From the NCBI GenBank assembly GCA_000004985.1, contig GG739502.1: a stretch of 1,207 nucleotides of DNA, one strand, 5' to 3'. A model generated the notes under the pieces. It had not been told where the DNA came from and made no database searches. It was given only the letters and a program-made list of their open reading frames with translations. Origin of the DNA: Naegleria gruberi. Taxonomy: Eukaryota. Of this stretch, positions 1 to 1,207 are shown in pieces; within the stretch, counting starts at the first letter, position 1, and each line of letters opens with the position of its first letter. A program made the position numbers and the translations under genes.

Positions 1-148
1 ATCATCATATAATTGGTCGACACACAGAAATTTAAATAAACAAAATTAACAAGAATAAAAGCAAATCCTACATAGAGTTGGAGAACGGGAAATGAAATTC
101 CCAAATTAAATTGAGAAACACAATCACAATAATTCATACTATCAAAAT

Positions 149-193
149 GAATTGAACCCTGGTCGCCGTATTCTACCACTAAACCATCGACGC
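149..193 (-). other. tRNA-like relic, either a degenerate tRNA pseudogene or a SINE-head fragment. It has A-box- and B-box-like motifs but no complete cloverleaf.
   Basis: The minus strand reads GCGTCGATGGTTTAGTGGTAGAATACGGCGACCAGGGTTCAATTC. TGGTTTAGTGG (forward 176-186) fits the Pol III A-box TRGCNNAGTGG with one mismatch, and it sits in a D-arm-like GTTT/AGTGGTA/GAAT context. GGGTTCAATTC (forward 149-159) resembles the B-box/T-loop GGTTCGANTCC. The spacing between the boxes is about 17 nt too short. No anticodon stem or closing acceptor stem can be paired. Confidence 0.3.
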
Positions 194-194
194 A

Positions 195-261
195 TTATGA
201 CATACTCTTACCAACGTGATTTAAAATTATCAAAAATAATATTTGATAAAAAAAATAGACG
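195..261 (+). promoter_or_regulatory. AT-rich 5' flank, the presumed 5' UTR or core promoter of the ankyrin-kinase gene.
   Basis: It includes an A-rich run (aaaaaaaatagacg) directly before the ATG at 262 and an in-frame TAG at 256-258. I could not recognise any specific promoter element with confidence. Confidence 0.2.
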
Positions 262-471
262 ATGGCGACCTGTAAAAACATTTGGCTACAAGCAGCAGAG
301 GCTATAAAACAAGGAGACCTGTCAATCTTACAAAGTCTCGACCTTGTATCTGTCATTAACAATAATTATGATGAAGCAACGTTACTATCAATAGCTTGTG
401 GTCAAAACAAATGTTGTCCTGAAATTATCCAATTATTATTGGCAGTTCCGACCATTGATTTGAACAAAAAT
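262..471 (+). CDS. Exon 1 (70 codons) of an ankyrin-repeat protein kinase gene. It starts at the ATG at 262 and ends ...TIDLNKN.
   Basis: The ATG at 262 is the first in-frame ATG after an in-frame TAG at 256-258. The track ORF 262..489 is this exon read through into the intron (NVSMLL*). The translation contains a partial cap-like repeat (AAEAIKQGDLSILQSLDLVSVINNN) and a full ankyrin repeat (YDEATLLSIACGQNKCCPEIIQLLLAVPTIDLNKN), which matches the TPLHxAxxxGHxxxVxxLLxxGAdxN consensus. The exon ends exactly at a consensus 5' splice site (AAT|GTAAGC). Confidence 0.7.
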
Positions 472-511
472 GTAAGCATGTTATTGTAATAAGCGAATAA
501 TATTTAAATAG
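472..511 (+). other. Spliceosomal micro-intron 1, 40 nt, GTAAGC...AAATAG, phase 0.
   Basis: It starts with the GTAAGC donor and ends with a TAG acceptor. It carries in-frame stops (TAA at 473-475 in the exon-1 frame, TAG at 509-511 in the exon-2 frame). Its length is not a multiple of 3, so removing it shifts the frame from that of exon 1 to that of exon 2. The junction rebuilds an uninterrupted ankyrin repeat (...DLNKN|SPLAIACFKG...). Alternative acceptors at 492-493 or 526-527 run straight into stops. Confidence 0.65.
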
Positions 512-598
512 TCACCGCTGGCAATAGCTTGTTTCAAAGGTAACAAAGAAGCTGTAAAGCTGCTATTGGATCAATCATTAATTGATATTCACAGGAGG
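512..598 (+). CDS. Exon 2 (29 codons): SPLAIACFKGNKEAVKLLLDQSLIDIHRR, a textbook ankyrin repeat.
   Basis: The frame is open from the acceptor at 511/512 to a consensus donor at AGG|GTACGT (598/599). The sequence fits ankyrin consensus positions (PLxxAxxxGxxxxVxLLLxxxxxDxx). Read without splicing, this frame hits TGA TAG at 635-640. Confidence 0.7.
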
Positions 599-640
599 GT
601 ACGTTCAATTAATTTACAGAAATACTCATTTCAATGATAG
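599..640 (+). other. Spliceosomal micro-intron 2, 42 nt, GTACGT...TGATAG, phase 0.
   Basis: It has a GTACGT donor, a TACTCAT branch-like motif at 623-629 and an ATAG acceptor. It contains tandem in-frame stops TGA TAG (635-640) immediately before a long open frame. Its length is a multiple of 3, so only excising it, not reading through it, gives a continuous protein. The alternative acceptor at 618-619 (21-nt intron) leaves the stops in frame. Confidence 0.62.
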
Positions 641-1207
641 AACGAAGAAGAAAGAACACCACTTCAGATAGCAAAATCAGAGAAAAACATTGAAATTATT
701 AAGTTATTACTTGGTAAAATATTTATTGATGACCTTAAAGATATCGACAAGTATACCACATCCAATGATGGTGAAATGATATTAATAGGATCAGAAAACG
801 ATCCTTCCATTTCGAAAAGTATATCTGAATATTTGAAGAATCGATCATTGGTTTATGGAAATGATCAGTATAATACTTTTTCAAAAGAGGATATTCCATT
901 GAAAGAAACATTCAATTCGTTAGAAGATTACATTCTTAGCCATTTGATTTCAAATTCTGTTGCTCCAAAATATCAATATAAACCGAGAGTAACACCTGTA
1001 CTAGACGATCCAGTTATTGACAGATCAGAGAGAACACTTTTTACCAGAAGTGGCGGTAATGGAGTAGTTTCAAAGGTTTCACTAAATGGAAAACCAGTTG
1101 CTGAGAAGCTTTCAACTGCTTTCATAGATTTAGAGCTCTACAAAAAAATCAGTGAACATCCTGGTATAGTTGAAATATTACATCATTATGAATCTGAGGA
1201 TGGCATA
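641..1207 (+). CDS. Exon 3 (189 codons, 3' partial, continues beyond the window). It encodes a third ankyrin repeat, then a linker, then the start of a protein-kinase catalytic domain.
   Basis: The frame is open with no stop from 641 to the window edge. The track does not list it, presumably because it has no stop in the window. NEEERTPLQIAKSEKNIEIIKLLLGKIFIDDL is an ankyrin repeat. Residues encoded from about 1028 read ERTLFTRSGGNGVVSKVSLNGKPVAEKLSTAFIDLELYKKISEHPGIVEIL. This matches kinase subdomains I-IV: a Gly-rich loop xGxxGxV, the beta3 Lys in VAEK (VAIK-like), an alphaC Glu in DLELY, and HPGIV (HPNIV-like). Confidence 0.72.

What the first reader, a model, noticed from the sequence alone, without database searches (positions are those of the whole stretch)
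262..1207. The ORF caller sees a 75-aa orphan, but the sequence encodes a three-exon ankyrin-repeat protein kinase gene with two ~40-nt introns
Two short segments (472..511 and 599..640) each begin GTA(A/C)G and end ATAG. Each contains in-frame stop codons and sits exactly where the ankyrin-repeat reading frame breaks. Removing both gives a single 288-codon frame across the window with three consecutive, well-formed ankyrin repeats and then a kinase N-lobe. Both interruptions show GT-AG boundaries, a frame correction by the first one (40 nt), and restoration of the repeat consensus across both junctions. That combination is very unlikely for a frameshifted bacterial pseudogene. This also means the window is eukaryotic (or from an intron-bearing nucleocytoplasmic virus).
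Basis: partly seen in the sequence, partly recalled or inferred. Interest (0 to 1): 0.7.

Follow-up and report, generated by a model that had tools for sequence, protein, structure and literature searches.

The report
Naegleria ankyrin-kinase gene, two short introns

Summary
Segments 472-511 (40 nt, GTAAGC..ATAG) and 599-640 (42 nt, GTACGT..ATAG) contain the frame break and the stops. Removing them gives one 288-codon frame, 262-1207.

The spliced product scores 83.6 bits on Pfam Ank_2; the three exons alone score 14-18 bits.

The kinase claim is supported only by homology. Pfam and PDB do not recognise the 59 N-lobe residues present. An exhaustive search finds two full-length protein kinases that align through the Gly-loop, VAEK and the alpha-C Glu. 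One of them is from N. gruberi.

The window is eukaryotic. RefSeq XP_002667991.1 ("predicted protein, partial [Naegleria gruberi]", on a 1207-nt contig) maps 100% to 262-471 + 641-1162.

That annotated model has a single 169-nt intron (472-640) and skips 512-598. The skipped 87 nt are open, exon-like in GC, bounded by AG and GT, and encode an ankyrin repeat that 0 of 3000 shuffles match. The two-exon model scores only 35.3 bits.

Biologically this is an ordinary spliced eukaryotic gene that a prokaryotic ORF caller misread. Interest is low. RNA-seq junction reads (PRJEB23822) would settle it.

The parts
1..261 (+). 5' flank (promoter and 5' UTR region, not characterised). There is an in-frame TAG at 256-258, two codons before the ATG.
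   Evidence: No ORF of note, no tRNA and no Rfam family. GC 29.5%.
262..471 (+). Exon 1: ATG start plus 70 codons, encoding an N-terminal capping helix pair and ankyrin repeat 1. It ends in phase 0.
   Evidence: Identical to residues 1-70 of RefSeq XP_002667991.1. Part of the Ank_2 hit. The context acgATGg has A at -3 and G at +4.
472..511 (+). Intron 1: 40 nt, GTAAGC...AAATAG, phase 0. It shifts the reading frame from 1 to 2 and contains the TAA TAA that ends the 75-aa ORF.
   Evidence: It is the only GT..AG pair that keeps both DLNKN and SPLAIAC. GC 22.5%. The donor at 472 is also used by the RefSeq model.
512..598 (+). Exon 2: 87 nt, 29 codons, phase 0-0, encoding ankyrin repeat 2 (SPLAIACFKGNKEAVKLLLDQSLIDIHRR). 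The RefSeq model skips it.
   Evidence: Alone it scores Ank 19.2 bits, E 0.0015. Including it raises Ank_2 from 35.3 bits to 83.6 bits. Its score against an independent ankyrin consensus is 46, and 0 of 3000 open dinucleotide shuffles reach that (mean 15.8, max 37). GC 39.1%. Real ankyrin proteins align across it without gaps.
599..640 (+). Intron 2: 42 nt, GTACGT...TGATAG, phase 0. Its length keeps the frame, but it carries TGA TAG at 635-640.
   Evidence: GC 26.2%. The acceptor at 640 is also used by the RefSeq model. The paralogue locus L005 has a GTATGT donor at a closely equivalent position, in the loop before the last ankyrin repeat.
641..1207 (+). Exon 3 (partial; it runs off the window): ankyrin repeat 3 (641 to about 730), a family-specific linker (about 731-1030) and the start of the protein kinase domain (about 1031-1207).
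   Evidence: 641-1162 equals residues 71-244 of XP_002667991.1. 1163-1207 continues the alignment to the paralogous kinases (HPGIVEILHHYESEDGI against HDGVVKLLHHYNQDGI).
902..1030 (+). Pre-kinase segment conserved among the Naegleria paralogues (KETFNSLEDYILSHLIS...). It matches no known domain.
   Evidence: Aligned to P0007 residues 111-155 and P0008 residues 20-64. No Pfam hit.
1031..1207 (+). Kinase N-lobe, first 59 residues. It contains the Gly-rich loop RSGGNGVV (about 1049-1066, with the first Gly replaced), the beta3 motif VAEK (1097-1108; Lys codon 1106-1108), the alpha-C Glu in IDLELY, and HPGIVEILHH.
   Evidence: Homology to P0007 and P0008, whose Pkinase hits start at the aligned position. 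V, A, E, K, the Glu and HH are invariant columns in alignment A1. The A1 profile weakly hits kinase N-lobes in the PDB: YabT 0.037, SYMRK 0.062, BMPR2 and IRAK4. Pfam Pkinase does not detect it directly.

Best explanation
The window is a 1207-nt unplaced scaffold of the Naegleria gruberi (Heterolobosea) nuclear genome. It carries the 5' part of a protein-coding gene, RefSeq XP_002667991.1.

The pre-mRNA is processed by the ordinary U2-type spliceosome. Two short phase-0 GT-AG introns (472-511, 40 nt; 599-640, 42 nt) are removed, joining exon 1 (262-471), an 87-nt exon 2 (512-598) and exon 3 (641 to beyond 1207).

The product starts with a capped stack of three ankyrin repeats, continues with a roughly 100-residue family-specific linker, and then enters a eukaryotic protein kinase domain. 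Only the first 59 residues of that domain lie in the window.

By analogy with other ankyrin-kinase proteins, the repeats would act as a protein-binding module that targets or regulates the kinase in signalling.

Shown here: the source organism, the exon and intron arithmetic, the ankyrin domain, and homology of the C-terminal part to kinases.

Inferred: actual splicing at both introns, catalytic competence, and the role of the ankyrin module.

The '75-aa orphan' is an artefact of running a prokaryotic ORF caller on eukaryotic DNA in a metagenome assembly.
For: Source:
- The 75-aa ORF clusters with XP_002667991.1 / EFC35247.1 [Naegleria gruberi], which sits on a 1207-nt contig. Its 244 aa map 100% to 262-471 + 641-1162.
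- The same DNA is in ENA sample ERR1078381 (L001 is identical to window 157-859). That sample also holds contigs encoding proteins 100% identical to N. gruberi proteins.
- GC is 32.1%, against 33% published for N. gruberi (PMC8040595).

Introns: the ankyrin score gain from splicing, the comparison of alternative splice models, the low intron GC and the chance control on exon 2 are given in the observation check and under the exon 2 part.

Other short GT..AG interruptions of 43-54 nt are inferred, from frame continuity and Pfam score gain only, in same-sample contigs:
- L002 kinase paralogue, 300-353.
- L002 G-alpha gene, 1740-1782 and 1814-1865. Its G-alpha score rises from 71 to 93 bits on approximate hand-splicing.
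- L005, from 94 to 139 or beyond.

Kinase.
Against: - No transcript data were available, so splicing is inferred from sequence only.
- The RefSeq/JGI model joins 471 to 641 directly. That junction gives a canonical ankyrin loop length (N-to-T spacing of 8), whereas junction 1 of the three-exon model leaves a loop about 5 residues short. Exon skipping is therefore structurally tolerable.
- Pfam Pkinase does not reach significance on the window's product, and the last 81 aa alone find no kinase in the PDB.
- The first glycine of the GxGxxG loop is replaced.
- The alternatives 603-647 and 603-650 for intron 2 score almost as well on Ank_2.
Confidence: 0.8

Rival explanations
1. The RefSeq two-exon model is the true and only mRNA. 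On this view 472-640 is one 169-nt intron, and 512-598 is a dead or never-used exon remnant inside it.
For: This is the annotated structure of XP_002667991.1. 169 nt is 1 mod 3 and joins the frames. The 471|641 junction gives a canonical ankyrin loop (DLNKN|NEEERTPL). The product still passes Ank_2, at 35.3 bits.
Against: The segment is an intact 29-codon frame bounded exactly by AG and GT, with the highest GC of any segment (39.1%). It encodes a repeat that 0 of 3000 shuffles match. Including it adds 48 bits of Ank_2 score. The same RefSeq model also stops at 1162, although homology continues to 1207, and a sister RefSeq model (XP_002674560.1) also appears to lack an upstream ankyrin-like exon. 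So these automated models are not reliable at this level of detail.
Confidence: 0.1
2. Exon 2 is an alternatively spliced cassette exon. Both the 3-repeat and the 2-repeat isoforms are made, which adds or removes exactly one ankyrin repeat.
For: The exon is symmetric (phase 0-0, 87 nt). Both inclusion and skipping give open frames and acceptable ankyrin arrays. Exon skipping and intron retention have been detected in N. gruberi transcriptomes (PMC6142364).
Against: There is no transcript evidence either way. Exon skipping is reported to be rare outside animals (PMC6142364). With introns of 40-42 nt, each intron would be expected to be recognised and removed on its own; this last point is my inference.
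Confidence: 0.12
3. The window is a bacterial ankyrin pseudogene broken by a frameshift and nonsense mutations, or an ankyrin gene of an intron-bearing giant virus.
For: A prokaryotic caller produced a 75-aa ORF from it. Giant viruses of amoebae are AT-rich and rich in ankyrin genes (general knowledge).
Against: The sequence is an N. gruberi genome scaffold with a RefSeq gene. Its closest specific relative lies on a 371-kb N. gruberi scaffold. A related kinase gene in the same sample sits beside an intron-bearing G-alpha gene, a eukaryotic signature. There was no exact match in IMG/VR viral contigs. Both interruptions have GT-AG ends and low GC, and they restore the domain when removed.
Confidence: 0.02

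Closest known systems
RefSeq XP_002667991.1 / GenBank EFC35247.1, 'predicted protein, partial [Naegleria gruberi]' (the annotation of this same locus)
   Same: Same DNA, same ATG (262), same first donor (472), same last acceptor (640) and same reading frame 641-1162. Identity is 100% over 244 aa.
   Different: It skips the 87-nt exon 512-598, and with it one ankyrin repeat. It stops at 1162 instead of reading on to the scaffold end. It carries no functional name; the ankyrin and kinase assignments were made here.
XP_002674560.1 'protein kinase [Naegleria gruberi]' (P0007) and the same-sample kinase P0008
   Same: These are the best and only specific relatives of the window's non-ankyrin part: 38-41% identity across the pre-kinase segment and the N-lobe. 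The ankyrin-like exon(s) lie upstream of one large exon that encodes the last repeat, the linker and the kinase.
   Different: They are divergent relatives, presumably paralogues, not orthologues. For L005 the upstream exon is only sub-threshold ankyrin (19-20 bits). L002 has an intron after the last ankyrin repeat, where the window has none.
Ankyrin-repeat protein kinases of other eukaryotes with N-terminal ankyrin repeats followed by a kinase or pseudokinase domain, such as ILK and TNNI3K (named from general knowledge)
   Same: Domain order: N-terminal ankyrin stack, then a kinase domain. The presumed logic is a protein-binding module attached to a kinase.
   Different: There is no evidence of orthology. 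The paralogue's kinase domain matches many kinase groups about equally (CDPK, PLK3, ASK1, RIPK1; 50-60 bits), and neither ILK nor TNNI3K is among the top 60 solved structures. The roughly 100-residue linker is specific to this Naegleria family.
Canonical U2-type GT-AG spliceosomal introns of short-intron protists
   Same: GT..AG ends, GTAAG- or GTACG-type donors, AT-rich content, in-frame stops, phase 0. Their size is similar to the other 43-54-nt interruptions inferred in same-sample contigs.
   Different: Nothing unusual was detected. The branch point and the polypyrimidine tract were not assessed rigorously.

Membership tests
U2-type spliceosomal intron | GT at the 5' end and AG at the 3' end | tested here: met
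   472-473 GT and 510-511 AG; 599-600 GT and 639-640 AG.
U2-type spliceosomal intron | Removal restores one continuous reading frame and an intact protein domain | tested here: met
   A 288-codon open frame. Ank_2 is 83.6 bits spliced, against 14-18 bits for the separate exons. It is the best of 8 alternative models.
U2-type spliceosomal intron | The host organism has spliceosomal introns | tested here: met
   The window is an N. gruberi scaffold. RefSeq itself annotates an intron here. N. gruberi is described as intron-rich (PMC6142364).
U2-type spliceosomal intron | Spliced transcripts joining the flanking exons | not testable with these tools
   No RNA-seq access. N. gruberi RNA-seq exists under PRJEB23822 (PMC6142364).
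U2-type spliceosomal intron | Branch-point motif upstream of the acceptor | not tested
   Only inspected by eye (for example TACTCAT in intron 2). No Naegleria branch-point model was available.
Ankyrin repeat domain (Pfam PF12796 Ank_2 / PF00023 Ank) | Score above Pfam's gathering cut-off | tested here: met
   Ank_2 83.6 bits (cut-off 27.3), Ank 43.6 bits (cut-off 21.1) and Ank_4 41.5 bits on the spliced product.
Ankyrin repeat domain (Pfam PF12796 Ank_2 / PF00023 Ank) | Tandem units of about 33 residues with the xPLxxA motif and a LLL helix | tested here: met
   ATLLSIAC at 39, SPLAIAC at 71 and TPLQIAK at 105, so spacings of about 32 and 34 residues. Each is followed by (I/V)xLLL.
Eukaryotic protein kinase (Pfam PF00069 Pkinase) | Score above Pfam's gathering cut-off | tested here: not met
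   No Pkinase hit even at E <= 10 on the spliced product or the C-terminal fragments. Only about 59 of about 260 domain residues lie in the window, so the test has little power here.
Eukaryotic protein kinase (Pfam PF00069 Pkinase) | Significant homology to proteins with a complete kinase domain, aligned over the N-lobe | tested here: met
   P0007 E 2.3e-8 and P0008 E 2e-5 against 1.84 billion representatives. Both pass Pkinase, at 119 and 113 bits. The alignment covers their Pkinase start.
Eukaryotic protein kinase (Pfam PF00069 Pkinase) | N-lobe motifs: Gly-rich loop, beta3 VAxK lysine, alpha-C glutamate | tested here: met
   VAEK, the Glu and two of the three loop glycines are invariant in alignment A1. 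The first loop Gly is replaced in the window (RSGGNG).
Eukaryotic protein kinase (Pfam PF00069 Pkinase) | Catalytic loop (HRD), DFG and APE motifs | not testable with these tools
   These lie beyond the window end. In the paralogues they read HND/HYD..KPxN, DFD and APE.
ILK / TNNI3K-type ankyrin kinases | Kinase domain specifically closest to those families | tested here: not met
   The top 60 PDB matches of paralogue P0008 are CDPK, PLK3, ASK1, RIPK1 and others, not ILK or TNNI3K. The resemblance is one of architecture only.

The most novel reading that the evidence does not exclude
The 87-nt, phase-0/0 exon 2 is a regulated cassette exon. On this reading Naegleria would make two isoforms of this kinase that differ by exactly one ankyrin repeat, both of them structurally plausible. 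It would be a rare case of domain-level exon skipping in a deeply branching, short-intron protist.
Probability: 0.12. Interest if true: 0.3.

Novelty: already known. Interest (0 to 1): 0.1.

Why it matters
It matters little for biology and somewhat for method.

- The finding shows that short eukaryotic contigs in metagenome assemblies, here an N. gruberi scaffold, produce 'orphan' ORFs when run through prokaryotic gene callers. Reading for GT..AG-bounded frame breaks can recover the true gene.
- It yields a concrete annotation correction for XP_002667991.1: add exon 512-598, extend the CDS to 1207, and name it an ankyrin-repeat protein kinase.
- It hints that the N-terminal ankyrin exons of this Naegleria kinase family are under-annotated in general.

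Tried and rejected
- The word-index homologue search with the spliced product returned only generic ankyrin hits. The exhaustive search did not return the RefSeq model either. This first suggested that the gene was unannotated. The likely cause is that the RefSeq protein sits in a cluster represented by the 75-aa fragment.
- Exact-match scans for an exon-3 49-mer found nothing in JGI metagenome contigs or IMG/VR.
- The search for related loci in JGI metagenomes gave only L006, an unrelated glutaminase with C-terminal ankyrin repeats.
- P0001's locus L004 is a TARA ocean contig. It was not pursued.
- Literature searches for PRJEB11402 found nothing. The Naegleria genome paper (PMID 20211133) is not held, so no published intron-length distribution could be cited.
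- The upstream part of L002 could not be resolved into a convincing ankyrin exon chain.
- A tRNA-like look of 153-197 on the minus strand was not confirmed.
- The bacterial-pseudogene and giant-virus origins were rejected once the window was identified as an N. gruberi scaffold.

Full report
**Observation**

The window (1207 nt, 32.1% GC) has an ATG at 262 that opens a frame-1 ORF of 75 codons, ending at TAA 487-489.
- 472-511 is GTAAGC...AAATAG, 40 nt.
- 599-640 is GTACGT...TGATAG, 42 nt.

Frame 2 opens directly after the TAG at 509-511 and is interrupted only by TGA TAG at 635-640. Deleting both segments gives 864 nt, 288 codons, open to the last base of the window. The segments are AT-richer (22.5% and 26.2% GC) than the three coding pieces (35.7%, 39.1% and 32.1%).

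**Is it more than chance?**

- On Pfam, the spliced product scores 83.6 bits on Ank_2 (E 1.5e-23). It also passes Ank, Ank_3 and Ank_4.
- The three pieces on their own score 15.6, 18.4 and 14.4 bits, all below the 27.3-bit cut-off.
- I enumerated every GT..AG pair of 20-150 nt that keeps the frame open. The proposed pairs are the shortest, keep the most coding sequence and have the best donors.
- I scored eight alternative models on Pfam. The proposed one is best, at 80.4 bits on a 139-aa N-terminal construct. Most alternatives drop to 33-55 bits. Only 603-647 and 603-650 come close (78.9 and 77.5 bits), and both need a poor GTTCAA donor.
- Real ankyrin proteins align without gaps across junction 2 (HRR|NEEERTPL).
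- Junction 1 (DLNKN|SPL) leaves a hairpin loop about five residues shorter than canonical.

**Kinase claim**

Pfam Pkinase does not hit the window's product. The last 81 residues alone find no kinase among solved structures.

An exhaustive phmmer search of 1.84 billion representatives with the non-ankyrin part (window 713-1207) returned three hits:
- P0007, E 2.3e-8, and P0008, E 2e-5. Both are bona fide kinases (Pkinase 119 and 113 bits).
- P0009, an immunoglobulin-repeat protein. I take this to be noise.

The alignments (38-41% identity) cover a shared pre-kinase segment, then the Gly-rich loop, VAEK, the alpha-C Glu and the HH(Y/L) strand. A three-sequence profile of this region weakly matches kinase N-lobes in the PDB at the right positions: YabT 0.037, SYMRK 0.062, BMPR2 and IRAK4.

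So the last 59 codons (about 1031-1207) are the start of a kinase domain by homology, not by direct profile detection. The first glycine of GxGxxG is replaced (RSGGNG). The catalytic motifs lie beyond the window. In the paralogues they read HND/HYD, DFD and APE.

**Source organism**

- The 75-aa ORF is on record in an ENA metagenome assembly (ERZ929261 / ERR1078381). Its 703-nt contig is identical to window 157-859.
- P0007 is XP_002674560.1, 'protein kinase [Naegleria gruberi]'.
- A 476-aa protein from the same ENA sample is 100% identical to P0007 over all 452 residues. The neighbouring ORF on that contig (L005) is 100% identical to another N. gruberi protein, XP_002674639.1.
- Decisive point: the 75-aa ORF clusters with XP_002667991.1 / EFC35247.1, 'predicted protein, partial [Naegleria gruberi]', 244 aa, on a contig of 1207 nt. 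That protein maps at 100% to 262-471 + 641-1162 of the window.

The window is therefore a small N. gruberi NEG-M scaffold. Its GC content agrees with the published 33% (PMC8040595). The bacterial-pseudogene and giant-virus alternatives fall away.

That makes a single 169-nt intron and skips 512-598.

Evidence that the skipped 87 nt are a real exon:
- They form an intact 29-codon frame bounded exactly by AG and GT.
- They have the highest GC of any segment (39.1%).
- They encode SPLAIACFKGNKEAVKLLLDQSLIDIHRR, which scores 46 against an independent consensus ankyrin repeat. The consensus was recalled from the literature, so this is only a supplement to Pfam. None of 3000 stop-free dinucleotide shuffles reaches 46 (mean 15.8, SD 3.6, maximum 37).
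- Including them raises Ank_2 from 35.3 bits (RefSeq model) to 83.6 bits.

The RefSeq model also stops at 1162, although the paralogues align on to 1207.

The sister model XP_002674560.1 starts at an internal Met. L005 shows an upstream ankyrin-like exon (NPLKVACRNCDIEIVKHLINAPSIKID...) followed by a GTATGT...AG segment, in the loop before the last repeat. That is a position closely equivalent to the window's intron 2. This exon is only sub-threshold on Pfam (19-20 bits).

I conclude that the three-exon model is better supported than the annotation. One caveat remains. The 471|641 junction also gives a canonical ankyrin loop, and exon 2 is symmetric (phase 0-0). A cassette exon therefore cannot be excluded without transcripts.

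**Context on intron style**

In same-sample contigs I infer further short GT..AG interruptions, from frame continuity and Pfam score gain only:
- L002, 300-353 (54 nt, GTTTGT..AAATAG), after the last ankyrin repeat of the P0008 gene.
- L002, 1740-1782 (43 nt) and 1814-1865 (52 nt), in a neighbouring G-alpha gene. Its Pfam G-alpha score rises from 71 to 93 bits on approximate hand-splicing.
- L005, from 94 to 139 or beyond.

Introns of 40-42 nt thus fit the local pattern. I could not obtain a published intron-length distribution for N. gruberi.

**Mechanism**

The gene is transcribed and two short phase-0 U2-type introns are removed. The mRNA encodes an N-terminal capped stack of three ankyrin repeats, a family-specific linker of about 100 residues, and a protein kinase domain.

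By analogy with other ankyrin-kinase architectures, the repeats would provide protein-protein docking that targets or regulates the kinase (general knowledge; inference). N. gruberi is reported to have about 265 protein kinases and extensive G-protein signalling (PMC9928731). This gene belongs to a divergent lineage-specific subfamily whose kinase domain matches no particular kinase group.

**Verdict**

- The object is an ordinary spliced eukaryotic gene that is already in RefSeq.
- What is added here is an annotation refinement (a missed 87-nt ankyrin exon, a 3' extension and domain names) and an explanation of the 'orphan' ORF as a prokaryotic-caller artefact.
- Interest is low.
- The decisive test is junction reads from N. 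gruberi RNA-seq (PRJEB23822, cited in PMC6142364).

Noticed in passing
window 472-640 and 1163-1207: RefSeq XP_002667991.1 treats 472-640 as one 169-nt intron, skipping an 87-nt ankyrin exon. It ends its CDS at 1162, although homology to the paralogous kinases continues to the scaffold end.
   Followed up: yes
L005 1-180 (N. gruberi locus of XP_002674560.1): The RefSeq model starts at an internal Met (MDLNS...). Upstream lies an ankyrin-like exon (NPLKVACRNCDIEIVKHLINAPSIKIDPSIS, Ank 19-20 bits, sub-threshold), followed by a GTATGT...AG segment. The N-terminal ankyrin exons of this kinase family may be systematically under-annotated.
   Followed up: partly
L002 531-1538 and 1611-2632: A full-length kinase relative (P0008) and an adjacent intron-bearing G-alpha gene occur in the same sample as the N. 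gruberi contigs. P0008 is recorded only from ENA and Logan, not NCBI, and has no relative closer than 29% identity in the word-index search. Either these genes are missing from, or hidden in, the N. gruberi annotation and its clustering, or the sample holds a second Naegleria-like genome.
   Followed up: partly
P0007 and P0008 (paralogues; beyond the window end): Both paralogous kinases have non-RD catalytic loops (HND / HYD instead of HRD) and DFD instead of DFG, while keeping VAEK and APE. This is an unusual but not unprecedented motif set for a presumably active kinase.
   Followed up: no
window 153-197, minus strand: By eye, GCGTCGATGGTTTAGTGGTAGAATAC...GGTTCAATTC resembles a tRNA 5' half plus a T-loop with the anticodon arm missing. 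ARAGORN at default settings and Rfam (whole window, and 120-240) find nothing. Relaxed ARAGORN gives only a poor 94-nt model. It may be a decayed tRNA-derived fragment or chance.
   Followed up: partly
window 420-438 and 691-709: A 19-nt direct repeat at 84% identity. It corresponds to the EIIQLLL and EIIKLLL helix-coding parts of ankyrin repeats 1 and 3, a trace of internal repeat duplication.
   Followed up: no
cluster of P0106 / P0107 (database behaviour): The 244-aa RefSeq protein is filed in a 90% cluster whose representative is the 75-aa prokaryotic-caller fragment. Both large protein searches therefore missed the existing annotation of this locus.
   Followed up: yes
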